Shown in pieces: positions 24,001 through 64,000 of a DNA stretch of 64,000 nt. Under the pieces are notes generated by a model, which saw only the letters and a program-made list of their open reading frames with translations, ran no database searches and was not told where the DNA came from. Both the position numbers and the translations under genes were made by a program. Each line of letters begins with the position of its first letter. The stretch's first letter is position 1. Source of the stretch: Candidatus Omnitrophota bacterium (lineage in GTDB: Bacteria; Omnitrophota; Gorgyraeia; Tantalellales; Tantalellaceae); the NCBI GenBank assembly GCA_049642065.1, contig JBAROK010000007.1, positions 2,134 through 66,133 of the forward strand. Direction: 5' to 3'.

Positions 24001-26272
24001 TCCCAAGAAGGGTGCGAAAGCCATACCTGACTTCAAGAGGCGCAACGTATTAAGTGAACAGGGCTTGAATGTAACGGAAGATTTGCTCAGGGAAGCCGGA
24101 CCGGACATATACGAACATACTATGCGCATGCAAAAAATAGCTATACTAATTGCTCGTCGCTTGATCTCTAAGGGGACCAAGATAAGCGAAGAGTCTATAA
24201 GGCTTTTAAGCAGGGCAGCTTTGGCACATGATATAGGGGCAAGAGAAAAATACAATCCGGCTGTTAAGGATATACGTAAAAAGATCACCGCTGGCATACA
24301 TGAGCATCCCGATGACAGGGTAGAAATGACCCAGGTATCCCTAGATAAATGGGCAAGCACAAGAGCTCTCAAATATAAGAACGTGCCCAAAGCAGAGCTG
24401 ATAGAGACTTTAAGGATAGCCAAGGAAACGGGTAATTATTATTCTGTTTATCGCATGTATATAAAGTATGTAGCCTTAGGCAAAAAAGAGCGAGAATCTC
24501 TTACTATGGAAGAAGAAACGGTGACCAGGAACCTTTTCAACCATGGTGAAAGGTCCGTTGAAATATTGCGTGAAAACCTGATCGAAGTCCCGGCAGAATT
24601 CGAACTTCTTGTTAAATACCATCACGATTATAACGGTCTTGAAGATAGGCTCCGAGAGATGGCGAAAGAGGATAGGATCACGCCCGAGAAGAGCGAAGAG
24701 ATAAAGCTTCTTTCTACTATTCTGATAGTATCGGATGTATTCGAGCAGGGCAATAATTACATGCGTCTTGTGGAAATAGCCGGAAGGGACGAGGTCGAAA
24801 GTTTCGGGAAGACGTTCGACACTTTTAATGGTTTCATGTGGAAGAGATTCCATCAGACAGAGCATATAAGCGATACAAGGGCGATAGAGGCGCTTAAAGA
24901 TCTCGTGGTAAAGGATGTCCCGTTATCAGTTAGCGGCATGGGTTCAAGGCCAATTGTTGATAATGATCTGGCGGTTATAATAGCTGAAGCCAGAAAGGTT
25001 CAAGGAACGCAGAGGAACTGGCTTACTTCCGAAGACAGGGCTTTTCAGCTGCGGGAACTGGCCAGGCGCAATCAGCGGACTCATGCTCCGTTGACATTCG
25101 AAATAGCCGTAGGGTTACCTTCTAAACTGTATGACCGGCTTGATGAGGCTGCGCTAAATAAACTAAGAGATGTTCCGGGCATAGCCTCTATCGTAAAGGT
25201 AGAGTCATCAATGAGGGTAGAATCGATGATGGATGAACTTGCCCATAAGACCGAAGGTACCAGATGTATCAACGCGCTTATAAGCGAGGATGTGATAAGT
25301 GATACAACTGATATCTCTAAGGGAATTAAAGAGCTTGAGAAAGTGCTTTATGACTTTGTTAGTAAAGCAACCAAAGATATCCTGGCGCTTACTGATCCGG
25401 AAGTAACTGATCTGACTGAAGAAGGCGTAAAGGCAATAGATGATATCAATGAGCTTGAGGCTATTATGGGAGTTCTTATACGCGCATTACCGCATAACGA
25501 GTCCTATTTGCTAAGTGAAAAGAGCCTGAGGCAGATAAGGATAGAAAATGCGTACAGGGCATTTGTCGCTCAGCGCTCGGAAGAGACAAACCGTGTTGAA
25601 TACCTTGAAAAGATGGTTGAGAATACTGGTAAGCACTATCTGGCGCATTTCGCGGATGGACAGGCCATAATGGAGGGCAAAGGTCATATTGTGGTACCTC
25701 CGGGTCTTGAGATCCGCAAGAGACGTGAAATGCAGGGAGTGAACCGTATGATGGACGCTAATACGGACAAGTTCTTTATAGTAGCGCCGGAAAACGTCAA
25801 AACAGACGATGAGAAACAGCAGTTTAAGAGCAAGTTAATGGAAACATGGATGCTGGACGGTGTTGTATCGGAAGGAGATGTCATCATACTCGAGAGAAGA
25901 GGAATAGATAAGAATTACCGTGCCAGTGAGATCTATAAGATGGTACAGTCGGAATACAAGGATTCCACTAGCACAAATACGGGTATCAGGTGCATCAAAG
26001 GGCAGCTTGAATACGATAACGCAGCGGAAAAAGAGAACATTCTGCAGGTAGGTATGTCGCAAGATGCGGTAAGCACTGTGAACCAGTATGAGGTGTTCGT
26101 GAACCTACTGCTCACGCGTGAAGACGGCGATATGGGGTATACGATATCTGGATTACAGCAGCTGACCAAGGGGCTTTATATGTACCTGCCGTTTGCCAGG
26201 CCGATAAATCTGGAGAAAGAGATAAGGCATTATCATGACAGGTTCGTCAAAGAGGTACTCATAAAGGCCTAA
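2..26272 (+). CDS. Giant multidomain protein, 5'-partial. The frame is open from the window edge, so the ORF-track TTG at 65 is not a real start. At least 8,756 codons in the window; stop TAA at 26270-26272.
   Basis: 26.2 kb uninterrupted reading frame (frame 2) with no in-frame stop back to nt 2. Many recognisable enzyme motifs along its length (see the domain features). Followed by a strong intrinsic terminator at 26362-26390. Confidence 0.9.
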   Translation, partial: SDFDQKVRIIGEWLFPAINDELNKLGLENIEDVDEFGNQVVKERLFKERKEAETSGRFKRGEDGELALDDTYEEVKVVKEFSQMLMDLEAGRVTGIQPGYLMYIAELVEYLEGSRQLNFYRKGTIGNFRVDECTVPLKGENHTFYVLRFRDTGKVLFGVAVKGDKWIKVNGRDANVENKLGKIYELLKSEGYTLVAELADFKMATREELKSRLAELTALAKDEEVEKRFPIYQLGTKGIEGGFIQTQIASPGKVFGIISIDTPGKKDLQQEWSSKIYVPGKGYIAPDDTSKASKAAGAIADSGATNNHANITLRREGFASVIGMGSHQMVVEGNVIRIKCNVPSTEDVIRGNETRTIRHYKEGEVVLRDGDLVMIDASEDSSDGVVVAVGKTQSEEKDFSAEAKELFGVLRDIELGGPLQEGSQYSQLYKRTVGRITGAETKIRDMRLLNMRRILKDASSDKTVNLAKMVAEILIDTSMITDSDKARRTLETLLRSLDDNVRGEVEEFIKLLFGKKVYQIEKEIHAVLGEVGISNVKKNPSSTLLYSNTEHILLEIRDLNDKMALVAEMIPGVDYDPGKGLFAEEADIIRKRFNEALEYLRSKKLDELSAYHSEYRIAEIERILKAADINEEKWIELSDELETLRRTSRGWMLDKIERDLSKVRRDIIKAECLGCDLSSPEMLTLQMEVNRMVAVANIKTMRQKGPGRYVIDLSELGSIYRQVAGNKAAEVAEVMKISESADSYTYRTDSGLTEIRNILKDGFDQVPSGFVISSLAVYSVIQENSAIRPDIEALISGNVAPEEKIEKLTELLLAKGKIPEFLKEMIAEKYSSMAGESKEPIVITRSTSQMEDLLDETRPGVRKAGKYLSFECVKGIDQIKKNIFKHLAHFWVTEGDVNDLHPILVQEMLFDLHSSFVANSVDSAEKNWNVANIDAVLGLGRGVVEGGEGIAIHTFKADNEGRITGRIVPPHNRMWAPAPSGIGIKLVDVPAEMKAARALTEEQVAKIAKLARAFQKYYRFPVNIEGGVTKDGKIVIFQVRPDSTLKSNSYSMSGTGIHSPPVEKIIALRKQYLAAENPSAEELGKVDPAAISELIDTNINELYQARKSESEVRDLEYKLVERLVQFKGYHYDRAREVVMDLRLYHRRSDVVDKLDELFFEELKQILRERLFEEGEFNRDREKISYFVENFHNLQEIREGKDIPNGNLFKSKPEYRDAVITWEERIDRYAYRYFTNKVAWDTAKTNAEKVIFNNVLVRHLSEKAKGEMYAFIRYLVPRLYENIPPLKRLRRPTIVLIGGTTASGKSTSARSVAKNLGMPYYFSADPIREVQRKLIPKDTNLSPADKRSSFQEDPAEKGFIEHGSSVIRSLNECARWAVNENRSMVIEGVHLIPGLIDPKLFEEANVVQIIVTVADEKGHAARIEKRGKEESGRGGAGRYLKDFDKIRKANDLFDEQARSHGVVRVDNSSDFTRTISEVLFYAAGPYKDKAKQGPDERLRAMLDNKVTREKVRTSSSLGKYVKSVYTLGESDKLYIDASEIEPGVIDKSEIEALRNAIVQTTSSGALVIRDFDRLVAEGRSLLDFAASIGFDDVIIGQEALFARTAKEVEPILQGLTAYAAELNVKVLIENLPTTGNAEISIGLKDAYGKGVQDIDMEAIVLADENGEPAGMIEDGDAVFFACKRGEREIQITLPFVAEKIGQKFTDLVVKTYEKIKFGIMTLYHDMFDPLPVAFRPMRQKDPLVDVLSGAGKRFLLSAESEKINHITYFFKGQSREPMEGEEIFSVDSPPKDEHLDRPELSLPALTKGITERMETGNFDFVGINLANCDVIGHYYDPTDVEKNKEIIQIRREAAEAVDEHLGILLEAAKKQGYSVIVTADHGVGEVAVKKGKGVGKHTTNLVPFIVVDPDTTKASVISIAETGRLGDVAPTVLDLMKMQKPEEMTGQSLLVDYPENADPKKVMLIVMDGWGIGAESEDNPIHIANTPVLDSLYKEYLNTRIKASQEEVGLLAGDSGNSEAGHLNLGAGRIVLGDDIRIVNAVKGEPIEGDTTLDENAAILETIAHANEHGSNLHLIGLLSDASSHGRVAHVLELLKLAKRKREEFREEGKGDGFKEVFMHMITDGRSTESGTAPVLLLDMQKQMSRIGLGKIVDCVGRNLALDRAYNWGKTKKAYRLFAMGEGKQVGPVGIAEQLLRDIPELGVAYNWDNHTLSGDRPGFVGSLDVRERVGAIFVTDTTVKDEEKNIFGAFDGHGDIPFFVYRMPKAAKTPEKKKEEETILSAETAQAIIDKCQDKLKATRKSLEAIHAYQYQRVVKLAEDPTLHFDKARKNLNGLFAEIEKILNSPDLERRQRKEAIRALMEGFIGLFGWQTIQSVREHLERDDLPVDILDGVNTYEDLKNALNENAKVNIPDEKIVNYRSKITRRNIEMRELAIEYIELVEEQKRLYNEEREAIREAYVEITGEELVDEEKLHVAARKAYPEYVLDVPHLKDTDKPTFVNVAGVMGVNSADVAHAIAERSGIPSRMHSGMLRGVISGIWPEDFISATDNFNIGKDIKDAYVKAFNKEAKAALEVILTGEGNISRAEAEAILKKFAENWKQAILEPIYSDWVRLTNQGTKQAIKRLLKEKSSQVFVGVFPGLLDPAHHEDANIVSIIVKVEDINEHWDGFLVSAKARGVDNPSDCMAEFFANRILQDHLTDLGRDLILPEVRETAVVDSSNMESAVRNAVNRVIDPIADRYVEVPNEIKEKAELEEKVVLAKYTEAWVKYLKIPQISIAWLLGWAVLRSVSPEAAIAFSIASIFGVIFMVIASKDRLFLEKAVASAVLAVGVSTFVPGCSEAKKDPRPEPRPNAAAASDGDKPGNKESQEKPFEIKPGENIPARDRNKEKKPSEDTMKAVSGLIDNVLAHTDRDRTEDYRKNAKFLMIMTMMVESDQFASSVQYGGGPARGLAQFEPATAKYVRDQVNKLTENKRFKKALQVTFGEKWEEKIFGLSSEEIIRKMEEKLEEVKKELAEAEKKEDLERMFNRKDEMVDLEEALGRRGLRTFFMNWRFRILIIKALGADWGSVSAMNGYRIGQELARNDFFTVIMTRINYFRNRNPIPSRTDIGAVYRYYLATWRPGKPVSFERFKRLVKVVEESGVMKEAVIEKTAAKTSDIAADQREDAPARMEARRRPWIVVLFVLTALSALLFWITYKKMFESFLKSAKQGTVFKMDLFTDIFDRKDLLRKLVASGKEVTVGRIPGTHKYLFRMGDKKYTTTELGEEYAEYIPEGHVHPAEGTAEERANAFMPSDHDLLKSHGNWRYIVSELGITWYATDGAVIETAIEDYATFWHSACHRSLDSIKKMMDERFDVKIDFDQMDLSKTKTRTGRSLLFGKTALSEKPERPSGDVHPFSASEAYKGVVVAFAVSVVMAAMFASKLVFNGFAGFDTIATISAIVGIYSIFTTARYYLLGKATYYALLAEELSPRQAHVRAIATSDGWRHPAFHKLLSKEKEIIEIHESYKNHLMGMIMIMPGFLLVNFLLKRGVTEIADRDENRDKVVEQRDFSNLSVYLNNLRSENEQLISPVPVIREVVEAGSSQVKQLEVGRSAELELKKSRQGQAAREEPSPSQKKIVRNWRFSVEPKGILYGQVEVEVLDKVSQDVVSKVYFQDALEMMKNLAGERLLWTNPTSADKSKNLHFHLYREKTPLPVENHELEPLCEDKDGEGVIYTVKDYPDEDHPIAAFVVKGTLSQINLMSARCYDIEKILRANGQTADKLFVEGEDGEIKVYFYPRRAGYAKIFDSDKARRLIGPVSLSGLWSFANQKDYSRFTKEDLYGVLSKVAVLYKSRNFQRISDAIVRNFREAEGAGILPPSVSFRLFSDSPFAEERKEPENLDERILRRKKVLDALYEDGVRRVNFTFTIPTAGMESEDEWIILQQALEHAKWKGMTSVLSIRNIVHRISVIEKQWARVEQYILPWVDKISLNAQVQNENLDKALRIFGQNCSNKSIEIYTCVNDRNKDKIESLARFMREYIGSFNTVEWEISRENMVRGNDAISEDDYVQLTSKLREAHPGLPIDYAVLTREETNLHVYNDGKLAIKDEGALKNVGDLFIPDTLKDKSNQSVFRRITENISVQSTYIPRKDEVTALPSTYVASTREEFTKAINKMQAKTLLPHIEWETEVAGAIGYVIGMTDKEIEILALAIQAHHLGHIPRAKNKKEFEKMLAVLKKAYPPDHDLKGGEVWHIRDAINRLFAAEGGEGKTEPQRFDIFRAEMASLLGKKDLTSDQKAIARSMLDSKAYMQEVLKENKMKLPADLRILTEYYGRHDRYTEARSREEDRFRMELSIDPDRMAKLIAISRIASTFVNRIDESVRSLRGEAGDSMPEIISFIVDNLKRDGETGDNILEALDGLIALIREQDSTILSIANRARGGDEGLMIAKSDRSFLRFLQKGVGKVRNKRQNMRIIESFRRYEKGIVAEDYYRWAIAAGIVSGFLGLISLFTGSMWVIGVTCYSLWALGRYYSIGRDIERGTGAVQLDKELAKKTPVVKIRPDGLLERDEKICKSLPPFTNRMLKIHEIFGMRISAMIFTLPIVGRIITNTYVEMKRLNMWMDFTIRKNRPLVTYDAFNPSRVRGRRDQMDFENGSWKWRRGDGLALIADIGDDLRRRIEEVQEALKKVVPDAEKLFLMEPERLHITVATLTKNTTSVDTNPERRAKRESLIRETKSRVSALGSGGIEVSFSLNDLTIWDNGDIAILGRMENRGLDEIRTSLDEFNLSVHKKDIVHVTVGRIFDEDISVDTFNEIRDVLEKFRNGKTEGDKKKFFTMTPELFIWDQAGKTDDKKYIHIPRTKKSGRDSKRLSKLGEPKRRDLSGVASKETNPLIERLIKEGKIVELFEQNGQLDAYRVKWVEGYQPGRVQEEVFGEEVDVDEMFTRSQQDNMLRWMRLHGLPDSRGGVHFRIALDNAALGWTGDEEHSNISHAGYRDGCIYIGERLLASIFTDPDDPLRKLILDEDEYNHLRDRDFDCRADKSRYEARLKSVFSRVESILREPPRKYDLYLCTSDEKAVSVYDGEDRDNPQSIHWGNFMPRDPIYVVGNMKPVKVSAGLYIANDFNISSSNIKMKVWMGPADNVNRWSEIRLERVYTNELEKGTEYLFAGMLPSYFKGDFTFKYSLDGGKTWKWANRGENDNRRIERKRTDTIIHEPMGYRVDEKIVTPDYKKHRTIRLYQGNEDLSDIVDAASSADEFFWGKGIHDSDNGHSYYRTNFGALEFRSSAEAKIIHMGDILSSENEYEGQLLIYYDDIQNAIVMRVNSNPGEALEHDAVSDPQERKWNRAVITIPLDHEGRAKRVEHEQTVMGISRAGLSILLRHAGINRKFPKLFRLIQQELVLYHVDDYMFLKHMYGNGMTPVEALNTVMDHPQSVSPEQISYIENMVKYTKSRVLGHLALRCLGKLVDEGMYDRDEYLKYARYTSEKDVLEGMATAERVIRQDDSFLKQMGINPEKVKSIFMRWFINGPNKTIYRVTCNMSNGEERVFAIEVKSPLGSAQGYSMLQIENAMRIWKKKSDKGYDYVPHVFVVKRVDDYRPKILTAPIKGLNIDREGEFHIESLDIESSRVVYDDILVVAREFVEGYQLPDYLAYGTVSAEETRRATVAGLKAFLKLWKDGQDPATGRGPFPMRPAPRDVIVYKIGETYHGVVAEMDSLREGFAIREVIRALQSCGYDKKDVISAAREVLAENERAIITENYGKYKSERVTEMFFAADKGSELHAVQTKGMDDEDAHRIAVKIANTAYELDEDKKRASFTKIRGALRYLSEKVNRNTNIPDDLRKKLSWKIDIFLRQNFWQNVKYYPVRAGRADVFEMLEGFVTDGTVYLVEGFIDDRDLSREENIAGVILYQILSELCSEERMEQLPSKPDYWDSVKGPEGVQNLILGDREEFERKIAKYARKEHIRIAMEDKVLGRNLVTYQGLKNLPEARKNAEEFLETICRIMETEKPEIKGDEDLAEYLRKRFGVRKFVIGGGKGTRFSPEGIMVKQLFKPDNYNTNIKQSRISSAFGMLEDVIVVDAITIFNLLHQDKELLAEHKTTMFFNVRENLVNLMDSGYINREQCKELVGKIKNIIDNELVYTHRSDHLRDLGSAMESAARAVEDVLGKKNERAQFVTDKISYAVFKVIMAIGEELIDENKKDELFGKNCIVILDSGDGHGSAYVEALRALNYSGKLDQARYSVIVHADSPGWGLDEYPNYVFISYLKTVNTVSPQVQDMPKVTIAAKNPRDKRAQGRARIDTITVENVGEVPVGVREWNELSYQEKKESREKAKAQDPTWFTNANILICDTMWAYDKKDVLESEYRHELGRMGKMKRRPAEYWSSDYLNIAAREYLQLIKKDPETAPLTRLVFIGQDAPNANKTLGRALEYRDALQKMILRKIRRMGVEVDKDTTVAISSTDVGPNFDLDKIIEDIFGDNLEGPAKFGNTKLRGAIHLDATVVVQKGAILDGRKKDVSLTGNCVVERGVELHGVVRADYLFDKNELLPTNKFYITGRQFRDSTTEATVVDNVDFRELGLIVDDRTRIWIAKKDKGESDLSVLKKIFGSDHPDSGRVTDQIFVYGDVVLDSTVRVENGTMLDGRVDEVILVGDTHVHKGVNLKSVKANDTTFAGWSDLDIYHYRQPTHDGNVGIRNSEFDNSYIEIRAEVINSMIRNSYVANGAMVEESDVADEVVVNGEEVRDRRLNRKDDALSVSVTAEEDGKVNYMPGAFRLEELPNEDIEDILGYQIKSARKLYMKFISDPILLERMVQETEQFIRSSVTPRFTIQQIRQYLIAKIRDNCDKEPDVSKFRPLVEDLRAHAKLWMANAIEIDINDEAASKAFFKELSILATRANFIDFSIDPKMFDIDQLVETDEAQRKKFTDLVDEFADSDLAIDGYSEFEKMVFSPEKGVFLFFTDNIGETEIDAVMWEFLARMGHTVVIAAKDGFSYADIDVKGVEETVNAHPSLCKHRDEGRIKVIASGSMSEGVFPHKFSDEVQDVLLYGTKLKGIIAKGQANLFTLSARNKISVPVVVMCLSKSRTSKKITGIDIKENEDGSKLFPPMIAVVPAGENIANCIGRGVFGGKLTRFGKKDEGDSSTGDTHAFTARDGMRWAKRFLTGAALFTVVSAIAAIGFVLHLDHLPWGFVIIFAGVDVVLAMISLEYYLLGKEAYKATVKYIFEGRDSRDMLEEDAVSQKQAMDTKIAEHQANNIIKYHPAFRYLSEHAQEAVKIHESFASHKLGMLAMVPVLGRILWLKLRDVHDRDMLIHSDYSNIEQVLRTQLERNVDTEFLKEAYRKGAKEEPIEGSRILKVTDRSGDPDIKRQQGFLRYERTVNKRCTFCNIPDLSTEVHRSKTAEWAFSVEPSPVFSSQMIAINSRHIDQGTMGPEVYYDMFQMLKNLKGWQMSWPGRLSTSHPDHFHVHMFERDKNSPVEEYDMQPICRDRKGEGVVHLIKDYPDRDHAIAAFAIAGSIRNAAVFAKRCADLEAIIKSAGYEVDKFITKGANGAIKVLFYPRTASYMKIGPSGRGRLTGPIELSGIWVTQDEKERDAFSLRDVHDILSKTTLRLYSDSFQALEDQIKRHFYEAEGIGLLPSSMDLMVTNKCNLNCPVCWGSYMPKHRIFAPDNADIEWVDFKEKKIKYRGTGQERVEKFEDNQKTAHELEVIRSKLSMYYCTEPESPEIEHIRFFSLAGDGKKVEKVTVRFTEGKTDSMALGSDEYNDAVLMVQKKMIDVMHKNGMRRMVFTGGEPLLEDNLAELLKYAKEKNITTWLFTNGLLMDEEKADQIMPYVDMISLSLDGHDDATNSRNRKPGHFVAVLKVLRILSRKYPEKEVQILTVVTERNKAYIRKIGFLLRQVTKGLKSFQWKLNYYKRIGRSQHERDIKNDVFLMEYGKFVSLAKSVQKEFTDIKVRYSPPDHDKAYLFVFPDGTLSTTVGPEYLELGNILDADTLREEDNLKIFKTITDNIRKRAIYIPKKGAKAIPDFKRRNVLSEQGLNVTEDLLREAGPDIYEHTMRMQKIAILIARRLISKGTKISEESIRLLSRAALAHDIGAREKYNPAVKDIRKKITAGIHEHPDDRVEMTQVSLDKWASTRALKYKNVPKAELIETLRIAKETGNYYSVYRMYIKYVALGKKERESLTMEEETVTRNLFNHGERSVEILRENLIEVPAEFELLVKYHHDYNGLEDRLREMAKEDRITPEKSEEIKLLSTILIVSDVFEQGNNYMRLVEIAGRDEVESFGKTFDTFNGFMWKRFHQTEHISDTRAIEALKDLVVKDVPLSVSGMGSRPIVDNDLAVIIAEARKVQGTQRNWLTSEDRAFQLRELARRNQRTHAPLTFEIAVGLPSKLYDRLDEAALNKLRDVPGIASIVKVESSMRVESMMDELAHKTEGTRCINALISEDVISDTTDISKGIKELEKVLYDFVSKATKDILALTDPEVTDLTEEGVKAIDDINELEAIMGVLIRALPHNESYLLSEKSLRQIRIENAYRAFVAQRSEETNRVEYLEKMVENTGKHYLAHFADGQAIMEGKGHIVVPPGLEIRKRREMQGVNRMMDANTDKFFIVAPENVKTDDEKQQFKSKLMETWMLDGVVSEGDVIILERRGIDKNYRASEIYKMVQSEYKDSTSTNTGIRCIKGQLEYDNAAEKENILQVGMSQDAVSTVNQYEVFVNLLLTREDGDMGYTISGLQQLTKGLYMYLPFARPINLEKEIRHYHDRFVKEVLIKA
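880..1180 (+). other. PEP-utilising enzyme mobile (phospho-His) domain-like region within gene 1.
   Basis: AIADSGATNNHANITLRREGFASVIGMG...GDLVMIDASEDSSDGVVVAVGK resembles the GG.TSHAAI.ARE.G.P.VVG...DG..G.V pattern of PEP synthase / PPDK / rifampin-phosphotransferase His domains. Confidence 0.4.
2100..3130 (+). other. PEP synthase/PPDK N-terminal (ATP-grasp-like nucleotide-binding) domain-like region.
   Basis: VAGNKAAEVAEVMKI...FDQVPSGFVISSLAVY matches GGKgAnLgE...vPpGFviT. The C-terminal PVNIEGGVTKDGKIVIFQVRPDS matches the DIEWa.ddgklyiLQsRPvT end of PPDK_N. Confidence 0.45.
3865..4440 (+). other. 2-phosphoglycerate-kinase-like P-loop kinase domain.
   Basis: Walker A IVLIGGTTASGKSTSARSVA, then FSADPIREVQRK and MVIEGVHLIPGLIDP. 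This parallels the GG.SGvGKST / tD.iRevmR / iiEGvHlvP pattern of 2PGK-type kinases. Confidence 0.5.
4850..6800 (+). other. Cofactor-independent phosphoglycerate mutase (iPGM/GpmI)-like domain, circularly permuted: the C-terminal ~260 residues come first, then residues 1-~300.
   Basis: Segment 1: KRFLLSAESEKINHITYFFKG...GINLANCDVIGHYYD...VTADHGV...NLVPFIVV...GDVAPTVLDLM..PEEMTGQSLL, corresponding to iPGM residues ~325-510. Segment 2: MLIVMDGWGIG...NTPVLDSL...GDSGNSEAGHLNLGAGRIV...LHLIGLLSDASSHGRVAHV...ITDGRST...VGRNLALDRAYNW, corresponding to iPGM residues ~5-235. The residue ~250-300 region (DGDAVFFACKRGERE and GAIFVTDTTVKDEE) occurs in both segments. Confidence 0.7.
7484..8060 (+). other. 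Second, degenerate copy of the 2PGK-like kinase domain (Walker A lysine/serine lost).
   Basis: FVNVAGVMGVNSADVAHAIAERSGIP aligns with IVLIGGTTASGKSTSARSVAKNLGMP (GKST -> VNSA). VFPGLLDPAHHEDANIVSIIVKVEDINEH aligns with VHLIPGLIDPKLFEEANVVQIIVTVADEKGH. Confidence 0.5.
8330..8520 (+). other. Two or three transmembrane helices within gene 1.
   Basis: IAWLLGWAVL..., AIAFSIASIFGVIFMVIAS and AVASAVLAVGVSTFVPG are hydrophobic stretches. They are followed by the Pro/Lys-rich linker KKDPRPEPRPNAAAASDGDKPGNK. Confidence 0.5.
8690..9400 (+). other. Lytic transglycosylase (SLT/lysozyme-like) domain.
   Basis: LMIMTMMVESDQFASSVQYGGGPARGLAQFEPATAKYV fits the SLT signature E-S-x-F...S.aGA.GLMQ..P.TA with a catalytic Glu. 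Downstream GYRIGQELARNDFFTVIMTRINYF and AVYRYY are consistent with SLT family C-terminal motifs. Confidence 0.55.
10200..12990 (+). repeat. Paralogous module A of gene 1 (TM/YYLLGK segment, then HIT/GalT-like, radical-SAM-like and HD-like domains). This is the catalytically degenerate copy.
   Basis: Aligns along its length with module B (21430-24680): TTARYYLLGKATYY / SLEYYLLGKEAYKA; RHPAFHKLL..IEIHESYKNHLMGM / YHPAFRYL..VKIHESFASHKLGM; GEGVIYTVKDYPDEDHPIAAFVVKG / GEGVVHLIKDYPDRDHAIAAFAIAG; VDKISLNAQ / VDMISLSLDG. Module A lacks the Cys pair, has LHFHLY instead of HFHVHMF, lacks CxxxCxxC and GGEPLL, and has AHHLGH instead of AHDIG. Confidence 0.6.
13900..14400 (+). other. 2H phosphoesterase (LigT / cyclic phosphodiesterase)-like domain.
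   Basis: Two H-x-T-x motifs ~95 residues apart: ERLHITVATL (14054-14075) and IVHVTVGRIF (14326-14346). Each is preceded by hydrophobic strands, which is the hallmark of the 2H family. Confidence 0.35.
15300..15560 (+). other. Possible carbohydrate-binding (CBM20/21-like beta-sandwich) module.
   Basis: MKVWMGPADNV...YLFAGMLPSYFKGDFTFKYSLDGGKTWKWANRGEN resembles the W...FKY..DG..W.W..G.N pattern of starch-binding CBMs. This is a weak call. Confidence 0.2.
18020..18700 (+). other. Sugar-1-phosphate nucleotidyltransferase (NTP_transferase) domain.
   Basis: FVIGGGKGTRFSPEGIMVKQLFKP matches the GGxGTRLxPlT..PK.L signature of glucose/mannose-1-phosphate nucleotidyltransferases. Confidence 0.45.
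19380..20230 (+). other. Left-handed beta-helix (hexapeptide-repeat) region following the nucleotidyltransferase domain.
   Basis: Runs of [LIV]-G-x-x-x-x hexads: GNTKLRGAIHLDATVVVQKGAILDG, LTGNCVVERGVELHGVV, GDVVLDSTVRVENGTMLDGRVDEVILVGDTHVHKGVNL. Confidence 0.4.
20700..21200 (+). other. DUF89 (ARMT1/damage-control sugar-phosphate phosphatase)-like domain.
   Basis: VFLFFTDNIGETEIDAVMWEFLARMGHTVVIAAKDG and later IIAKGQANLFTLSAR resemble the DNxGE...D and KGxxNyE.L signatures of DUF89 proteins. Confidence 0.3.
22020..22700 (+). other. HIT-superfamily (GalT / Ap4A-phosphorylase-like) nucleotidyltransferase/phosphorylase-like domain.
   Basis: Cys-x-x-Cys (RCTFCN at ~22088-22110) upstream of the histidine triad HPDHFHVHMF (22322-22351). 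This is the arrangement seen in the GalT branch of HIT proteins. Confidence 0.4.
22870..23650 (+). other. Radical SAM domain (SPASM/MoaA-like core) with an unusually long insert between the Cys triad and the Gly-rich SAM motif.
   Basis: TNKCNLNCPVCW (CxxxCxxC; 22888-22914); ~130 aa later VFTGGEPLL (23315-23332); then YVDMISLSLDGHDD. Confidence 0.55.
24100..24760 (+). other. HD-domain phosphohydrolase-like domain.
   Basis: EHTMRMQKIAILIARRL...RAALAHDIGAR (H...HD) and downstream LLVKYHHDYNG, as expected for the HD superfamily. Confidence 0.45.
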
Positions 26273-26361: not shown

Positions 26362-26390
26362 CAGGGAAGCAGCAGCTTCCCTGTTATTTT
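26362..26390 (+). terminator. Rho-independent terminator of gene 1.
   Basis: Perfect 9-bp GC-rich stem CAGGGAAGC (26362-70) / GCTTCCCTG (26375-83), loop AGCA, followed by TTATTTT (26384-90). Lies ~90 nt after the TAA. Confidence 0.7.
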
Positions 26391-26432
26391 GCCCCATAAG
26401 TTAGGGTAGAAAATAGTTAGAATATAGGTTAT

Positions 26433-26610: not shown

Positions 26611-26640
26611 ACATTCTAGTTGATAAACATGCTAGAATGT
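26611..26640 (+). promoter_or_regulatory. Candidate operator: perfect 9-bp inverted repeat overlapping promoter P2.
   Basis: ACATTCTAG (26611-19) and CTAGAATGT (26632-40) are exact reverse complements with a 12-bp spacer. The repeat spans the -35 of P2. Confidence 0.4.
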
Positions 26641-26648
26641 GGTATCAT
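26620..26648 (+). promoter_or_regulatory. Sigma70-type promoter P2 upstream of gene 2.
   Basis: TTGATA (26620-25), 17-nt spacer, TATCAT (26643-48). Overlapped by a 9-bp inverted repeat. Confidence 0.4.
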
Positions 26649-26693
26649 TTAACTATTAGACGATAAAAAAGCCAGAAGGGTATATAAATAGCG

Positions 26694-26705: not shown

Positions 26706-29700
26706 ATGAAAGCTTGGCATGATAAAGGATCGGACAGTATAGACTTACCAAATATAGCCGCCTCCGGCGGCGAGGTAATGCCTAGTATCTCGACTTTCAA
26801 GTCAAGGCATGTAAAGTTTATCAAAACAGTCGCATTAGTTGTCGTAGGCCTGTTTCTGCATCAGCAGATCGTATGGGCTACCGGTGGCGAAGCCATTTGG
26901 ACTACTGCCTTAAAAGGGAGTAAGTACGATTATAAATATGACAATTACAAAGGTGGCCAGGACTTTGAAGTGCCTTATGACGTTGCTCAGAAACAGGCAA
27001 CCCATCTTAACGGCGGCGACGAGGTCATAATCCAGATACAGGACGCTCACGCGTCTCTTTCTGCGCAATACTCAATCGTAAAACTGCTCGATTCACTTGT
27101 TGCTAATTACGAGCTCAATTTCGTTGCCCTTGAGGGCTCGAAAGGGCTTTTGGACACATCAGTACTCAGCACATTTCCCGATAAGGACATACGCGAAAAT
27201 ACGGCTGATTTTCTCATGAGAGAAGGTCGCATGAGCGCCGGTGAGTTTTTTACCGTTACGCGCGATAATGACATACGCCTCTACGGTGTTGAAGACGATA
27301 AGCTGTACCGTAAGAACGTTGAAAGTTTCTGCGATGTAGCGTCAAACCGTACGGAGCTGGTCAGTATTGTTAAGGCTTTCGAGAAGAATATAGATGCCCT
27401 TGAAGAAAAAGTCTACTCAGATGACCTCAAGACCTTTATCGCCAAAAGCCGCGAGCACAGAGAAGGCTCTTTGAGTTTTACCGATTACTGGAAACAGATC
27501 AACGAGTTCGCAAAACGCTTCAAGCTGGATACCTCGCGTTACGAAGAGCTGAAGAAGCTTCTTGAGACGGTTGAACTGGAAACCCAGATAGATTTCGTAA
27601 GAGCCAACCAGGAAAGGCGCGATCTTATCGACGCTCTCAGCAAGAGCATGGATAAGGGGGAACTTGAAGCGCTTGTTCTTAAGTCCGTTGATTTCAAACA
27701 GAATAAGATCTCGCAGGGTGCCTTCCACAGTTACCTGGCAACCCTTGCGGAGAAACACGGGGTAAAGACCGAAGGATACGAGAATCTTATTGCTTTCACC
27801 AAATACGTTTCGCTTTACGAGACTATCGATATTTTCGGTATGTATCACGAGATAGAAGCATTCGAAGACAATCTGCGCGAAAAATTTTACCGTAACGATT
27901 ACGAACGCAAACTGCACAAGATGGCCAAAATGGCGCGTCTTCTGGATAAGCTTTACAGCATGGAGCTTACCAACGGTGATTGCGCGTATATCGATGCGAA
28001 CCGTGCCGAATATAACGCGGCTGAGTTCGCCGGGTTCATTAAGGAAACTTCCAAAAAGTACAATGTTCCTGTAGGCAGTTACGATATAGCCCAGATGCTT
28101 TCCGGTATTGATGAAGCGCTTGAATTCTACCATGTGGCTGAATCCAGAAATAAGGCCATGCTTTCTAATACTGTACGCCATATGAGAACAGAAGGGTCCA
28201 AAGTGGCAGCTCTTATCACCGGTGGTTATCACACTAAGGGTTTGACGAAACTTATGGAGGATAAGGAACTGTCTTATTTGGTTATCGTACCGAAGTTCGA
28301 GAAAGATAAGGAACGCCCTTATGTCGCCATACTTACTGGAAAGAAAAAACCGTACCAGAAGCTCCTGGATTCCGGCAAGTACCAGCTTGCTGTCGAAGCG
28401 TATTTTTATTCTACTGAAGGTGATATCACCAGGATGCAAACGGCTATATTCCACGCATTAGGTGAGACCGTTCTGGAAGGTAAGGATCTTGCAAGCATGA
28501 AAGAGCTTTGGAAAAGGGCTTACAGCTCAAGATACGAATCGTTTACACCCAGGCAGATAAAAGATATGCCTTTCGAGCCGATCGATCCGGATGAGTTCGA
28601 TAGGTTCGTGGACGACATACACGTAGTTTCCCAGGGGAGCGATAGGGTAATAATAGGGATAGGCCATGAACTTGCTTATGTTACTTTGAGCAAGCAGGAT
28701 GGTTCTACCGTTATGGGAACAGCTACTTCAAACCAGAAGGCTCATTACGCGAAAAGGCGTGAGGGGCAGATAAGGAAGGATCTTGAAAAGAGGGTGCTGA
28801 ATGACTCTGAAAGAAAGGAGATCGAGCAGAAACTAAGTTCTTCCGAGCTAGTCGAAGAGATAGCGGCTCAGCTAGGAGTTGTTAAATACGGGGTAACGAC
28901 CGTTACATTAGATAAGATTGTTACCAGGCTTAGAGCCAAGGGCGTGCAGATACCTGAGAACTGGAATGAATATACGGATCTTAAGCATCTGGTCAGTGGT
29001 TTTGCCGGCCGGGTGTTCAAAGAAATGCGCAAGATCACGCATATAAAGGTAAATAATTATATACGCGAGAATATCCCTGAAGGGCTTCTTGCGGATACCC
29101 TGGAAGAAAGGCAAGCCAATCTGAAAAAATTATACCCGGAAAAGGTAGAGAGCGCTGATTATAAAATAAGTGCAAGAGTCATACCTGTAGTAGGGCTTTA
29201 TGTCGCGACCGGCCTTAAGGCTCACTTAGGCCTCGGCAGGGCTTATGGCGAACCTGTTATGTATATTGATGACGATTATTGCGACGAACAGGTTCTCAAG
29301 CACGAGTTTTATGAAATGAGCAGATGGGAAGCTAAACGCCGGGACCTGAACCTGGACCCGCAGCAGATGAGGGACTGGATATTCAGTCACCTGGACGAAG
29401 CGCGTAAGTTGAATGATGAGTTTCACGGGCAGAATCCTTACGAGGTTGAAGATCACAGAGCACCTAACGTAAAGTTTGTTTACGCTGACGAGCTTGACAT
29501 CATTATAGCTGCTTCTTCGGATGAAATTGCCGAGAAGGTAAAGGACATAATTAAAGATCTAGTTGAGCTCAGGGATAAACCGGGAAAGATGACCCAGAAA
29601 ATCATTGATGCTGCAATAGCCGTGGTCGATGCAAAAATGAAAAAGATGGGTATAACTAAGAGTTCTGTCGAGCAGGCTACTTGGGACAAGATACAGTTCA

Positions 29701-32700
29701 AAAGACAGGCAACGATATATCATCTTCAGAAACGTATAGCAGGTAAAGCTGAACCGTCACCCTCAAAACCGCAGGCTAAAAAGAAAGCCGCGGCGCAGCC
29801 TAAGAAAAAGGTGGCTGCCGCAAAGACCCAGCCTGAGAATATAAGTGACATGATCGCAGAAGCAAGAAGGTGTTTGCCTTCGTGGAAAGTCTGGCAGGCG
29901 AATAATTTTGACAGGGCTATAGAGCTTTTGACGAAAGTTTTAGAGAAGGATAAGAATAACCAAGAGGCTAGGGAGCTTTTGCAGTTTGCCAAACGCAGCA
30001 AACTGGAAGCGGAAGATAAGATTATAAAAAGGATAAGCAATAACCTTAACGCGGCCGGAACCGCTATCTCCAACGGTAATGTGAAGAAAGGACGCAAGTT
30101 TTTAAACGCTGCATTGGATGATATCTATGCTCTTGGAGTGAGACACGAACGCGGTAAAGGGCTCAAAGATTGGTCGGATGATATCAGGAAAGAACTTAAC
30201 AGGGAAATGGATAAGCAGCGAAGCCCTGCTGAAAAACCGGCTGCCCCAAAGAAAAAACTGACTCCAAAACCGGAAGAGAAAAAAGCCGCTCCAGAAGGAG
30301 TGCACTTTGGCAAAAAAGCTTTAAGGTCAACAGGTGAAGGAATTGTAAGAGATGAGGCTCCTGCTGCTCCAGAACCCAGGCCACTTCCGCCACCACCGTC
30401 AGCAGCGCCAGTAGCGGCACCTACACTGGTACCGGCAGTATCGGACGGTCCGGTTTTTTCTCCGGAAGTAGAGAGTTTTCTTAATGTAATTAGTGTTAAG
30501 AAAAATACTTCTGCGTGGCAGAAAGTCGCCCAAGAAGCACAGAATGTCATGACGAACGGCAGGAACCTGGCTGAAGTGATGAACTATGCCGAATGCAAGG
30601 ATATAGTAACAATAGCTAACAAAAATTACGGTACCATGGGAGCTCTTATCGGTCTTTATACTCCAGCCGTACAGGGTGCGGAACAGGCTCCTACGGTAGA
30701 TATAGTCAGGGTGGTTACTGAAAACCTGCAGCTTGTAAAAGCTCAGATAGATCCGACAGTCAGGGATGCGGTGGAGAAAAAAGCTGATGAACGTCCCACG
30801 CCTGTTAGCGCTGACGGTTTTATCGCCGAAGTTGAGAATATCAGGGCAGATACATATGAGATGCTCATGCAGCCGCTTATTGACAGATTGAAAGCGGAAG
30901 CTCAGTTCGCGGAAAAGAAGGAATCGATCATACCGCAGGCGCAGGTATTAACGGATTATTCTTCGGTTATGCAAAGGATCAAGGGATTGATCGAACAGAA
31001 ACCGCACATGATATCTGATGTGCTTGCCGCTGAAATATCTGCGGTAGAAGCGGATATCGAAAGATTTAACCTGAATGAGGTTACGCTGGAAGGAAGCCGT
31101 GACCCTCATACGGGAGAGGCTTTATGGGGCCTTCTGCAGAAAGAACTTGCAATACTTAAAAGTAAAGAAGCTGCTGAAGAAACGCCTGCCCCGGCAGATG
31201 AAGCTGCTGAAGAAACGGGGGAACCTGGCTTGCTTGAAGAAGAGTATGCTGAACAAAGTAATTTGGACATTTTTCTGGTTAATTACGGTATAGAGAAAGA
31301 AAGTAAGGTCTATACTTTCGTTGTTGAAGGCATAGAAAGGGATTGGCAGGAGCGTCGCCAGGAGAATGTTGAGCTAGAAGATGAAGAGCTGAATACCCAG
31401 ATCCCCGAGGATTCGGCACAAGAGGCTACTTATAGAAGCGCGATAAGGGAAGCGGTGACAAGTATAGAAGCGGATGATTTGAATACCGCGGTTCAATCAC
31501 TAGCCACAGTGATGAATTTTGAGCAAGAGGATACACGTCGTATAAGGCTGGTATCGATATTGCTCAGTTATGTAGAAGCTGCCGAAGCGAAGAAAGACGA
31601 AGAGGAAGCACCGAAAGGTGATGAAGCTCCGGCAAAAAGACGTGAAACTACGGTAGTAGAGCCTTTTAAGGAAGAAATAGATGCGGCCAAAGCTGAAGAA
31701 GAAGCAGCAGGGGCGAAAAAATATTCCGCAGCAACGGAACGTTTTATGGAGATACTCGGTATAAGGCATGATCTCAATGTTTACGCGCTTATTGCCACTG
31801 AAGTTGAGAAGGTGGTGCAGGAAGGTAAAAAACCGCAGGAAGTAGTTAGTATGGACTTCGTTCGTGATTGCGCGAAAGAGATAAAGGCCGAATGCAGTAA
31901 ATTCGACACTCTTGTTACTACTGCTCAAGCGGAGCTGTCCATACTGGAAAAAAGCGGAATGGATCTCACCCAGAAGATAAAAGATAAACTCAAGTTCGCG
32001 TTGGGACAGGTAAACCCCAAGGCTAGAGAGGTGGTGACAGGAAAGTTACTGGCGAGAATGGAAAAAGAAGAGGAACGGCCCACTAATACAGGCGACCTCC
32101 TCGGTGCATTGCTTGATATCCGCGATGATGCCACGGAAGCTTTGGCGCAGCCTATAATCAAATATCTGCAGGAAGGCAGAAGTCAGGCTGAAAGGGACGC
32201 TCAGAAGATCATGGGTCTTTTGACCACGGCCGAAGAAGATATGAGTGCGGAGAACTATGTGAGAGCTCGTAAGAAAGCGAACCGGGTTCTTGAACTTGAT
32301 TCTGCAAACGAGGATGCGAAAAACATAATCGCCCGTATTGACAAAATAGAAGCGGCAGAGGTTTCTCCGGAAGATGCTGAAGCCAAAGCAAAAGGGGCCG
32401 CAGTTTCCGCAGCGCTTATCAAGCAGAGCGATGTTATGAGTAAAACAGTAGGACTTATAGCCAAGCTTAAACATATGGCTATGTATCCGCCGGTACTTGA
32501 AAAAGATATTCTGTCGGTTGAGAACGACATAGCGGGATACAACATGAACGAAGAGACTCTTGCGGGCGGTAAAGACAAGATCTCGGGCAGGCCGCTTTGG
32601 GACGTTCTGCAGGAAGAGCTGCAGAGAGTCAAAGAGATCTATGCTTCCCAGGAAGAAAAACCGAAAACCGCGATCGAAACTGCTGTTGAAAGTGGGATAT

Positions 32701-63474: not shown

Positions 63475-63598
63475 CGTATGTATAGGGAAGACATTTCCCT
63501 GCTTTTCATGTAAGTTATTTATTTTAAATAAGATACAGATAAAGGGCAGACAACGCATAAACCCTTTGTTAAATTAGAAAAAGTAAGAAAATATATGA

Positions 63599-63627
63599 TT
63601 GACCAAGAGCTTATTTATATATATAAT
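63599..63627 (+). promoter_or_regulatory. Sigma70-type promoter of the third gene.
   Basis: TTGACC (63599-604), 17-nt AT-rich spacer, TATAAT (63622-27). Located ~65 nt upstream of the ATG, with an alternating (TA)n region around it. Confidence 0.6.
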
Positions 63628-63680
63628 ATATATAGCCTAAAAGTAAGACGATAAAAAAGGCAGATATACAGTTTTTACAG

Positions 63681-63691: not shown

Positions 63692-64000
63692 ATGCTGAAA
63701 CGCATCAAGTTATTTAAAATAGTATCAGTATTACTACTGATCGTGTTCGTCCATGAACAGCTTGGATGGACACAGGATGGTGCGCCTGTATGGGCGGATC
63801 TCGAAAACGTCAGCAACATCCCGTCTGGAGAACTTCCTTCTGAAATAAAGATACCTTACGATATTGGTGAAGTGTGTGATGCTACCACCAACGGTACAAG
63901 CGAAGTTATCATAAATATCCAGGATGCTCATGCATCTCTATCTTCCCAGTATTCCATAGTAAATATACTCGATAACCTTGTATCTAATTATGATGTCAAA
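63692..64000 (+). CDS. Start of a third large gene (3'-truncated by the window edge). Its N-terminus is paralogous to that of the 26706 gene.
   Basis: ATG at 63692 preceded by GGGGGGAG (63681-63688) and by a TTGACC-N17-TATAAT promoter. Signal-peptide-like MLKRIKLFKIVSVLLLIVFV. Conserved block IINIQDAHASLSSQYSIVNILDNLVSNY versus gene 2's VIIQIQDAHASLSAQYSIVKLLDSLVANY. Frame open to the window end. Confidence 0.75.
   Translation, partial: MLKRIKLFKIVSVLLLIVFVHEQLGWTQDGAPVWADLENVSNIPSGELPSEIKIPYDIGEVCDATTNGTSEVIINIQDAHASLSSQYSIVNILDNLVSNYDVK

What the first reader, a model, noticed from the sequence alone, without database searches (positions are those of the whole stretch)
26770..27150. Conserved N-terminal signal peptide + 'IQDAHASLSxQYSIV' domain shared by gene 2 and gene 3
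Both downstream genes start with a signal peptide and a conserved block about 60-100 residues in (VIIQIQDAHASLSAQYSIVKLLDSLVANY versus IINIQDAHASLSSQYSIVNILDNLVSNY; also at 63850-64000). This suggests a family of paralogous giant genes sharing an N-terminal targeting or anchoring domain, possibly a dedicated secretion/recognition handle.
Basis: seen in the sequence. Interest (0 to 1): 0.55.

Follow-up and report, generated by a model that had tools for sequence, protein, structure and literature searches.

The report
Shared enzyme-like head of giant proteins
The short motif shared by two neighbouring giant genes is the active-site strand of a roughly 450-residue, apparently exported, hydrolase-like "head" domain that opens thousands of very long Omnitrophota proteins, and the papers on these giant genes that I checked do not describe it.

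Summary
Gene 3 (aa 3-102) matches gene 2 (aa 34-137) at 38% identity, E 1e-22. Through gene 3's orthologue the similarity to gene 2 runs about 790 residues.

The block is not a free-standing targeting tag. It is the first catalytic motif (Q-D-x-H) of a ~450-aa domain that directly follows a Sec-type signal peptide. This head domain has no Pfam, NCBIfam or PDB sequence match. It is nevertheless found in 9,789 protein clusters (50% identity) and in at least 579 places in Omnitrophota genomes. It is always N-terminal, usually on proteins of thousands of residues, and the genes often lie in same-strand tandem arrays.

Two AlphaFold models both have erythromycin esterase EreC as their top PDB match. 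ChaN, Bcr135 and HopBA1, all TIKI-superfamily folds, appear lower in the list. D113, H115, E143, R481 and H509 are conserved in 100% of 185 relatives. Their spacings equal those of EreC's catalytic residues (His to Glu 28, Arg to His 28).

Best reading: an exported TIKI/Ere-like hydrolase head, with peptidase or esterase activity. The fold assignment has moderate confidence and the substrate is unknown. Profile-profile sequence tests were negative. Gene 1's N-terminus could not be examined.

The parts
26620..26648 (+). sigma-70-like promoter upstream of g2 (TTGATA-17-TATCAT with TG)
   Evidence: consensus match only
26658..26676 (+). 19-nt box AGACGATAAAAAAGCCAGA between the promoter-like site and the g2 start; repeated upstream of g3
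   Evidence: 2 matches in the window, 0.01 expected by chance; absent from 81 related loci
26706..63335 (+). g2, a 12,209-aa Archaeovorin-type giant ORF with SecA PP-binding and P-loop domains at aa ~2718-3058 and TM clusters from aa 3364
26778..26876 (+). Sec-type signal peptide or signal anchor of g2, counted from the alternative start M25: n-region KSRHVKFIK, h-region TVALVVVGLFL, c-region HQQIVWA, then TGG. The longest ORF starts at 26706
   Evidence: manual (-3,-1) rule, as no SignalP was available
26967..28310 (+). head domain of g2 (aa 88-535), a predicted TIKI/erythromycin-esterase-like alpha/beta core split by a helical lobe
   Evidence: AF2 model pLDDT 79; Foldseek top hit EreC; replicated with P0049
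27132..27134 (+). E143 of the invariant L-E-G, 28 residues after H115, as E78 is after H50 in EreC
27297..28106 (+). ~270-aa all-helical insertion (aa 198-467) with invariant E292, R304, Y367, Y371 and E387
28146..28232 (+). second catalytic motif: R481-N-x-x-M ... G506-G-Y-H509, with Arg to His = 28 residues as R261 to H289 in EreC
26805..29171 (+). full extent of paralogue similarity (g2 aa 34-822 against the g3 orthologue L078, 42% identity)
63599..63627 (+). sigma-70-like promoter upstream of g3 (TTGACC-17-TATAAT)
63646..63664 (+). second copy of the 19-nt box (AGACGATAAAAAAGGCAGA)
63692..64000 (+). 5' end of g3: signal peptide aa 1-27 (63692-63772) and conserved block aa 72-100 (63905-63991, QDAH at 63920-63931). 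The ORF runs off the window
25097..26269 (+). C-terminal ~390-aa module of g1, shared with g2 and with many related loci
62172..63332 (+). C-terminal module of g2 (aa 11823-12209), 27% identical to the g1 module, E 4e-26
26364..26391 (+). terminator-like hairpin plus T-run after g1 (GGGAAGC-AGC-AGCTTCCC TGTTATTTTG)
   Evidence: read from the sequence; not listed by the scan
63483..63511 (+). terminator-like hairpin plus T-run after g2

Best explanation
g2 and g3, and probably g1, belong to the Archaeovorin-type giant proteins of Omnitrophota. They open with a standard head module. This module has a Sec-type signal peptide (positive n-region, ~13-residue hydrophobic core, conserved x-Q-Q-phi-x-W-A/T then Q-G-G-x-P-phi-W junction), a ~30-residue linker, and then a ~450-residue domain. 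The domain's alpha/beta core resembles the TIKI / erythromycin-esterase / ChaN / TraB superfamily. The core is interrupted by a ~270-residue helical lobe. Inferred mechanism: the head is the first part of the chain to cross the cytoplasmic membrane and folds on its outer face. There, H115 (held by D113), E143 and H509 position a water molecule for attack on a peptide or ester bond, and R481 stabilises the oxyanion, as proposed for EreC. The most likely job is hydrolytic processing of exported polypeptide, either the giant protein itself, its array neighbours, or prey envelope components. What is shown: the module, its fixed N-terminal position, its size and spread, and the invariant residues. 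What is inferred: the fold class (moderate confidence), catalysis, the export topology and the substrate.
For: Paralogy: E 1e-22; g2 against the g3 orthologue, 42% over aa 34-822. Family size and position: (51 homologues, almost all named Omnitrophota). (at least 579 confirmed sites in GTDB genomes). (9,789 clusters with E <= 1e-3 and 6,504 with E <= 1e-30; in all 150 listed the match sits at the protein's N-terminus; lengths reach 7,834 aa). (in 63 of 80 loci the ORF runs off the locus). (31 of 42 loci have a same-strand ORF longer than 1,000 aa ending less than 1.5 kb upstream). Signal peptide: (81 of 81 have a hydrophobic 13-mer about 73 aa before the His; 78 of 81 are net positive before it; 62 of 81 have a W-[ASTG]-[QENHT] junction). 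The divergent stand-alone members P0043, P0044 and P0049 carry classical AxA-type signal peptides. Fold: two models from sequences 29% identical (pLDDT 79 and 87) both give EreC 6xcs_A as top PDB hit (prob 0.85; E 0.07 and 0.009). Bcr135 (3b55/2rad), ChaN (2g5g) and HopBA1 (5t09) are also listed. These are the structures that PMC6254334 names as TIKI-superfamily folds. Catalytic pattern: D113, H115, Q121, E143, G144, R481, G506 and H509 are 100% conserved in 185 relatives. The spacings H115 to E143 = 28 and R481 to H509 = 28 equal EreC H50 to E78 and R261 to H289 (EreC sequence). They also match Bcr135 H85 to E113 and RRSP H3902 to E3930. D113-x-H115 mirrors RRSP E3900-x-H3902. Weak sequence echoes: the commonest sub-threshold Pfam hit among members is PF04187 ChaN/Tiki (6 of 32), and it falls on the R..N..GxxH segment. 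The best HMM alignment to EreC pairs L-E-G with L-E-C (4 of 300 shuffles reach that score).
Confidence: 0.55

Rival explanations
1. The head is a non-catalytic secretion, docking or anchoring handle, essentially the reader's idea. It would be recognised by export machinery such as a T2SS/T4P-like system, or it would tether the giant protein at the membrane.
For: It is always at the extreme N-terminus, next to the signal peptide. The stand-alone copy P0049 lies immediately upstream of T2SS-E, T2SS-F and pseudopilin genes. The L016 member is followed by a T2SS-E homologue. Published work reports secretion or pilus genes flanking 13 of 14 giants and T2SS proximity. The TIKI superfamily contains non-enzymatic members.
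Against: A handle does not need 100% conservation of a His/Asp/Glu/Arg/His set with esterase-like spacing. T2SS adjacency was seen in only 2 of the loci whose downstream region was visible. The junction and linker, not the block, are the parts nearest the membrane.
Confidence: 0.2
2. The domain is a new fold or family unrelated to TIKI/Ere. On this view the Foldseek hits and the motif spacings are coincidence.
For: All sequence-based comparisons were negative. TM-scores were low and rmsd high.
Against: The same top hit came from two divergent models. Three other TIKI-superfamily structures appear in the hit list (3b55/2rad, 2g5g, 5t09). Two independent 28-residue spacings involve the only two invariant histidines, and each follows a predicted beta-strand.
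Confidence: 0.2
3. The head is a ChaN-like ligand-binding (for example haem or cofactor) periplasmic module rather than a hydrolase.
For: The best, still sub-threshold, Pfam echoes are to PF04187 ChaN. ChaN 2g5g is among the fold hits.
Against: EreC ranks far above ChaN in both fold searches. The full Ere-type catalytic set, including the Arg, is invariant.
Confidence: 0.07
4. The head is a cytoplasmic enzyme held at the membrane by an uncleaved N-terminal helix, so nothing downstream is exported until the first TM cluster.
For: It would reconcile the SecA-like ATPase region, which has no TM segment before aa 3364 in g2. It would also fit the cytoplasm-type enzymes in g1. Ere enzymes are given no signal peptide or export role in PMC7979712; that they act in the cytoplasm is my own background knowledge.
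Against: Positive charges precede the hydrophobic run in 78 of 81 cases, which implies N-in/C-out. The run is only about 13 residues long. It is followed by a (-3,-1)-compatible site. The stand-alone relatives have textbook cleavable signal peptides.
Confidence: 0.15

Closest known systems
Erythromycin esterases EreA/B/C and Bcr135/Bcr136 (Pfam PF05139; PDB 6XCQ/6XCS, 3B55, 2RAD, 2QGM)
   Same: EreC is the top structural match for both models, over ~440 aligned columns. Both have an alpha/beta core plus a second, largely helical lobe. The residues H, E (+28), R and H (+28 after R) keep identical spacing.
   Different: There is no significant sequence or profile similarity. The head has D-x-H/Q-x-x-H instead of E-x-x-H. 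Its helical lobe is far larger (~270 aa). It is preceded by a signal peptide and fused to thousands of further residues. Ere enzymes are ~400-aa proteins.
TIKI / TraB / PrgY proteases (Pfam PF01963; Bazan et al. 2013 and Sanchez-Pulido & Ponting 2013, as cited in PMC6254334)
   Same: The overall layout is a signal peptide, then the domain on the outer face, then TM anchors further on. Both have two His-bearing motifs after beta-strands. A role in acting on exported peptides or proteins is plausible by analogy; the family biology here is my own background knowledge.
   Different: hhalign against an E. coli YbaP/TraB alignment gave only 12% probability. GxxH motif 1 is replaced by QDxH. No Pfam hit to PF01963.
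RRSP, the Ras/Rap1-specific endopeptidase module of MARTX toxins (PMC6254334)
   Same: A TIKI-fold hydrolase embedded in a very large multi-domain secreted protein. It has the acid-x-His arrangement (E3900-x-H3902) and a His to Glu spacing of 28.
   Different: RRSP is an internal effector module delivered into host cells, not an N-terminal head. RRSP was not among the listed fold hits.
ChaN haem-binding lipoprotein (PF04187, PDB 2G5G)
   Same: ChaN gives the weak Pfam echoes on the R..N..GxxH segment and a fold hit. It is a lipoprotein, so also outside the cytoplasm (background knowledge).
   Different: All scores are below the Pfam cut-off (16 bits against 27.7). ChaN is a binding protein.
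Archaeovorin-type giant proteins of Omnitrophota (West-Roberts et al. 2023, bioRxiv 10.1101/2023.11.21.568195)
   Same: g2 is 12,209 aa with divergent SecA domains and TM clusters. g1 carries PPDK, iPGM, radical-SAM and HD domains. All relatives are from Omnitrophota.
   Different: That paper states that N-terminal regions 'generally lack identifiable domains', apart from C39 or S8 peptidases in some. The head described here is not reported there or in the 2026 preprint, which calls the long proteins overwhelmingly sequence-unique.

Membership tests
TIKI / Ere / ChaN / TraB superfamily | Common core of a parallel beta-sheet flanked by helices (PMC6254334) | tested here: inconclusive
TIKI / Ere / ChaN / TraB superfamily | 2His/2Glu catalytic set: acid-x(1-2)-His after strand 1, Glu about 28 residues later, and a second His in a C-terminal GxxH; Ere enzymes also have an Arg 28 residues before that His | tested here: met
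   D113/Q112-x-H115, E143 (+28), R481, G506-x-x-H509 (+28). All are 100% conserved in 185 relatives except Q112 at 95%. Variation: the first acid is Asp, not Glu.
TIKI / Ere / ChaN / TraB superfamily | Detectable sequence or profile similarity to a member family | tested here: not met
   Pfam's best is PF04187 at E 0.012 and 16 bits against a 27.7 cut-off. HMM against PDB found none. hhalign gave 12% for TraB and 0.5% for Ere.
Erythromycin esterase family (PF05139) | Match to the family model; macrolide esterase activity | tested here: not met
   No PF05139 hit at E <= 10. Activity is not testable here. The head is therefore not filed as an Ere family member.
Sec-type cleavable signal peptide | Positive n-region, 7-15-residue h-region, and small residues at -3/-1 | tested here: met
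   Manual analysis of 81 heads and of g2 and g3. phi-W-A then Q-G fits the (-3,-1) rule. No SignalP or DeepTMHMM was available, so cleavage itself is untested.
Archaeovorin-type giant protein | Protein of more than 10,000 aa from Omnitrophota with many TM segments and divergent SecA DEAD and preprotein-binding domains | tested here: met
   g2: 12,209 aa; SecA_PP_bind E 2e-20 and P-loop_SecA E 2e-13; 18 hydrophobic segments. Relatives are named Omnitrophota. Origin of the window is inferred, as no exact contig was found.
Head-bearing gene family (this report) | g1 also starts with the head | not testable with these tools
   g1's 5' end is outside the window, and its orthologue on CAZMEZ010000002.1 is also cut. 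Indirect evidence: proteins with the shared C-terminal module (L008, L059, L025, L016, L019) or with g1-like body segments (L048, 45% identity to g1 aa 4857-7115) do start with the head.

The most novel reading that the evidence does not exclude
The head is the signature of a dedicated biogenesis route for giant proteins. On this reading it is an exported, membrane-proximal TIKI-like peptidase that every array member carries at its N-terminus. It would cleave the emerging giant polypeptides, its own or its neighbours', into functional pieces, and/or hand them to the adjacent T2SS/T4P-like machinery. That would make it an autoprocessing and secretion-coupling module specific to Omnitrophota, with the conserved C-terminal module as its counterpart.
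Probability: 0.15. Interest if true: 0.8.

Novelty: new variant of a known kind. Interest (0 to 1): 0.58.

Why it matters
Omnitrophota giant proteins are described as almost entirely sequence-unique, with N-termini that lack recognisable domains. A head domain found in about 9,800 clusters, always N-terminal and with an invariant hydrolase-like residue set, matters in three ways.

- It is a practical marker for true gene starts in fragmented assemblies.
- It gives a family definition that links otherwise unalignable giants, together with the shared C-terminal module.
- It offers a small, expressible ~450-aa piece on which localisation, processing and enzymatic hypotheses about these proteins can be tested.

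It would also add a large, lineage-specific branch to the TIKI/Ere superfamily. That branch has no Pfam model.

Tried and rejected
**Sequence searches of the head**
- Pfam, NCBIfam and PDB sequence searches of g2 aa 1-700 found nothing.
- A profile of 32 heads against PDB gave only noise such as troponin C and polyQ.
- With the helical insert removed (alignment A2), Pfam gave only sub-threshold ChaN, DUF5694 and DUF5682 hits on the C-terminal motif. PDB gave nothing.
- A final database search with A2 at E <= 10 returned only Omnitrophota fragments with no Pfam labels, so no bridging sequences were found.

**Profile-profile comparisons**
- hhalign of A2 against an E. coli YbaP/TraB alignment gave probability 12%. 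The YbaP search returned only close homologues, so the template was shallow.
- hhalign of A2 against an EreC/EreB/Bcr135/Bcr136 alignment gave probability 0.5%. The EreC and Bcr sequences were recovered.

**Locating the source contig and other checks**
- An exact-match scan of metagenome contigs for the window's first 50 bases found nothing. The GTDB scan found only a 67%-identical syntenic relative. g1's N-terminus therefore stayed out of reach.
- Rfam on the g1-g2 intergenic region found nothing.
- A second TM segment that could return the chain to the cytoplasm after the head was rejected. The only candidate (aa 821-839, KD 1.33) is weak and conserved only in close orthologues.
- 'Short complete' members were rejected as evidence for small proteins in at least one case. 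P0002 is a giant gene split by a frame break.
Full report
**What is in the window.** The 64-kb window is almost entirely three same-strand ORFs. g1 spans 2..26272, has its 5' end cut off, and is at least 8,756 aa. g2 spans 26706..63335 and is 12,209 aa. g3 starts at 63692 and runs off the end. g2 carries SecA preprotein-binding and SecA P-loop domains at aa ~2718-3058. It has clusters of hydrophobic segments from aa 3364 onward. g1 carries PPDK_N, AAA_18, metalloenzyme/iPGM, ARMT1-like, radical-SAM and HD domains. This is the 'Archaeovorin-type' giant protein architecture described for Omnitrophota. Nearly every homologue I found is named Omnitrophota.

**Checking the observation.** g3 aa 3-102 aligns with g2 aa 34-137 at 38% identity, E 1e-22. 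Nothing comparable occurs elsewhere in g1 or g2. The quoted blocks are at 27024-27110 and 63905-63991. Both are preceded by a K/R-rich stretch and a 13-residue hydrophobic run. g3 is cut after 103 residues, so I used its orthologue L078, which is 65% identical over all 103 aa and lies on a contig syntenic with the window. g2 aligns with L078 at 42% identity over g2 aa 34-822.

**How widespread the module is.**
- The first 620 aa of g2 found 51 proteins in the 90%-clustered database. Nearly all are Omnitrophota, many are cut by contig ends, and none of the matches falls in a Pfam-annotated region.
- An exhaustive HMMER search of 1.84 billion cluster representatives found 9,789 proteins at E <= 1e-3 and 6,504 at E <= 1e-30.
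- In all 150 proteins listed, the match lies at the extreme N-terminus, with an offset of at most 63 residues. Among the 134 new ones the median length is 2,567 aa and the maximum 7,834 aa.
- In 63 of 80 fetched loci, the ORF headed by the module runs off the fetched DNA, up to ~4,000 aa. The 17 ORFs that end within the locus are 598-3,585 aa.

**Tandem arrays and a shared tail.** In 31 of 42 loci with enough upstream DNA, a same-strand ORF longer than 1,000 aa ends less than 1.5 kb upstream of the head. In 21 of these it is open across the whole upstream flank. Several contigs carry two to four heads spaced about 23-40 kb apart: CAZMEZ010000002.1, PLNN01000019.1, JADHWG010000002.1 and CAZGOG010000007.1. 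g1 and g2 also share a ~390-aa C-terminal module. The same module lies just upstream of heads in nine other loci. It also closes complete head-bearing proteins of 2,236-3,585 aa (L008, L059, L025, L016, L019). The family is thus bracketed by a common head and a common tail around a variable middle.

**Gene 1's start.** It could not be read. The exact contig is in neither collection, and the syntenic relative is cut at the same place. Indirectly, L048 joins a head to a segment 45% identical to g1 aa 4857-7115.

**The N-terminal segment.** Across 81 heads, all have a hydrophobic 13-mer with KD >= 1.6, and 76 have KD >= 2.0. It lies a median of 73 residues before the motif histidine. In 78 heads the ten residues before it are net positive (mean 2.9 K/R). 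In 62 it is followed by W-[ASTG]-[QENHT]. The consensus is x-Q-Q-phi-x-W-A then Q-G-G-x-P-phi-W. The short hydrophobic core and the phi-W-A site fit a cleavable Sec signal peptide. The divergent stand-alone members P0043, P0044 and P0049 have textbook AxA-type signal peptides. No SignalP was available, so cleavage is inferred. g2 has two possible starts, each with a Shine-Dalgarno-like sequence (26706 and 26778). The second gives a conventional 33-residue signal peptide.

**What the block belongs to.** The alignment of 32 heads shows a ~450-residue conserved domain (g2 aa ~88-535) with a sparse set of invariant polar residues. In 185 relatives, D113, H115, Q121, E143, G144, R481, G506 and H509 are 100% conserved wherever the position is present. 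Q112 is conserved in 95%. E292, R304, Y367, Y371 and E387 in the middle of the domain are nearly invariant as well.

**Predicted fold.** AlphaFold2 on this alignment gives pLDDT 79 and pTM 0.72. The model has a beta-alpha core (strands 94-100, 107-113, 139-142, 146-148, 191-195, 500-506, 523-529) interrupted by an all-helical lobe at aa 198-496. Foldseek against the PDB puts erythromycin esterase EreC first (6xcs_A, prob 0.85, E 0.07). Bcr135 (3b55/2rad), HopBA1 (5t09) and ChaN (2g5g) appear further down. A second model was built on P0049, a stand-alone 437-aa relative only 29% identical to g2 (pLDDT 87). It again gives EreC first (E 0.009, prob 0.85; 6xcq prob 0.63) and HopBA1 again. Bcr135, ChaN and HopBA1 are the structures that the RRSP paper lists as TIKI-superfamily folds.

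**The catalytic pattern.** For EreC the catalytic residues are E47, H50, E78, R261 and H289. For Bcr135 they are H85/E113, and for RRSP E3900, H3902, E3930 and H4030. The head has Q112-D113-x-H115, E143, R481 and H509. Its His to Glu spacing of 28 equals that of EreC, Bcr135 and RRSP. Its Arg to His spacing of 28 equals that of EreC, which I checked on the EreC sequence recovered. H115 and H509 are the only two invariant histidines, and each follows a predicted beta-strand, as TIKI-fold active sites require.

**Limits of the fold assignment.** Every sequence-level test was negative or sub-threshold.
- Pfam, NCBIfam and PDB searches gave no hits.
- Pfam echoes to ChaN (PF04187) reach only E 0.012, although it is the commonest weak hit (6 of 32 members) and falls on the R..N..GxxH segment.
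- hhalign gave 12% against a TraB alignment and 0.5% against an Ere alignment. Both templates were shallow.
- The best HMM alignment to EreC pairs L-E-G with L-E-C, and only 4 of 300 shuffles reach its score. This is suggestive only.

I therefore treat 'TIKI/Ere-like hydrolase fold' as the best-supported reading at moderate confidence. I do not file the head as a member of any named family.

**How it most likely works.** By analogy with EreC and RRSP, H115 (oriented by D113), E143 and H509 would hold and activate a water molecule, and R481 would stabilise the transition state. The layout is a signal peptide, then a TIKI-like domain, then distant TM anchors. From my own background knowledge, this matches Tiki and TraB/PrgY, which act on exported proteins or peptides at the outer face of the membrane. 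I therefore favour an exported, membrane-proximal hydrolase. Its substrate may be the giant polypeptides themselves or prey envelope components. The published suggestion that N-terminal C39 or S8 peptidases in other giants may cut them into pieces is a functional parallel.

**A secretion-linked role remains open.** The stand-alone head P0049 is the gene directly upstream of T2SS-E, T2SS-F and pseudopilin genes. The L016 member is followed by a T2SS-E homologue. Published work finds secretion or pilus genes beside most giants.

**An unresolved problem.** g2 has no convincing TM segment between aa 58 and 3364. If the head is exported, the SecA-like ATPase region would be outside the cell as well. 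g1's radical-SAM and PPDK domains likewise look cytoplasmic. The same kind of implausible localisation was noted by West-Roberts et al.. Either hydrophobic segments are being missed, or translocation stops after the head, or the head is not exported after all. This needs experiment.

**Novelty.** The two papers on Omnitrophota giant genes that I searched do not describe this head. One says N-terminal regions generally lack identifiable domains. The other calls the long proteins overwhelmingly sequence-unique. Neither mentions TIKI, TraB or esterase in this context. A Pfam-less domain with ~9,800 clusters at 50% identity, fixed at the N-terminus of giant proteins, is a worthwhile if not revolutionary finding.

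Noticed in passing
window 26658-26676 and 63646-63664: A 19-nt box AGACGATAAAAAAGSCAGA lies 10-19 nt downstream of a sigma-70-like promoter and 30-28 nt upstream of the g2 and g3 start codons. The window holds two copies against 0.01 expected by chance. The box is absent from 81 related loci. It could be a transcript 5'-end or regulatory element specific to this genome.
   Followed up: partly
window 25097-26269 and 62172-63332; also L001, L002, L006, L008, L014, L016, L019, L025, L050, L059, L078: g1 and g2 end with a shared ~390-aa C-terminal module (27% identity, E 4e-26). The same module closes many head-bearing proteins elsewhere. The family therefore has a common tail as well as a common head. 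Its fold and function were not examined.
   Followed up: partly
window 26706-36800 (g2 aa 58-3364) and g1: Topology paradox. No convincing TM segment lies between the signal peptide and aa 3364 of g2, yet this stretch holds a SecA-like ATPase region. g1 holds radical-SAM, PPDK, iPGM and HD domains, which are normally cytoplasmic.
   Followed up: partly
L082 10001-14774 (GCA_028715645.1, JAQURK010000005.1); L016 55-11392: A stand-alone 437-aa head protein (P0049) lies directly upstream of T2SS-E (with MshEN), T2SS-F and N-methyl pseudopilin genes. In L016 a 3,091-aa head-bearing gene is followed by a T2SS-E homologue (41% identity).
   Followed up: partly
L084 6541-9873; upstream ORFs of L010, L013, L020, L026, L030, L042, L044, L062, L067: A same-strand ORF of about 1,020-1,145 aa recurs immediately upstream of head-bearing genes. 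In L084 it carries HEAT repeats and a faint acetyltransferase hit. It may be a conserved partner gene.
   Followed up: no
L025 (Candidatus Omnitrophus magneticus JYNY01000197.1) 2555-4360 (-) and 4855-6696 (+): Two head domains are arranged head-to-head on opposite strands. This is an exception to the same-strand tandem pattern.
   Followed up: no
L085 10001-12260 (P0002): The 'complete' 618-aa head protein is followed by an overlapping ORF that runs to the contig end, and it is preceded by a 7,255-aa gene. It is probably a giant gene split by a frameshift or assembly error, so short database members should be treated with caution.
   Followed up: partly
P0208; P0039: One 157-aa head fragment is deposited as 'Methanosarcinales archaeon' on a 1.8-kb contig, and another as Planctomycetota. 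These are probably mis-binned Omnitrophota DNA. The archaeal label is curious, because Velamenicoccus archaeovorus is reported to prey on archaea.
   Followed up: no
window 26706 versus 26778: g2 has two in-frame ATG starts, each with a Shine-Dalgarno-like sequence. The residues upstream of the conserved W-R-K-R-H stretch are poorly conserved among homologues. The shorter form, starting at M25, gives a conventional signal peptide.
   Followed up: partly
window 27297-28106 (g2 aa 198-467): The helical lobe inserted in the core has its own near-invariant residues (E292, R304, Y367, Y371, E387; 99-100% in 185 relatives). This suggests a functional surface, such as a substrate or partner binding site, and not a passive spacer.
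   Followed up: no
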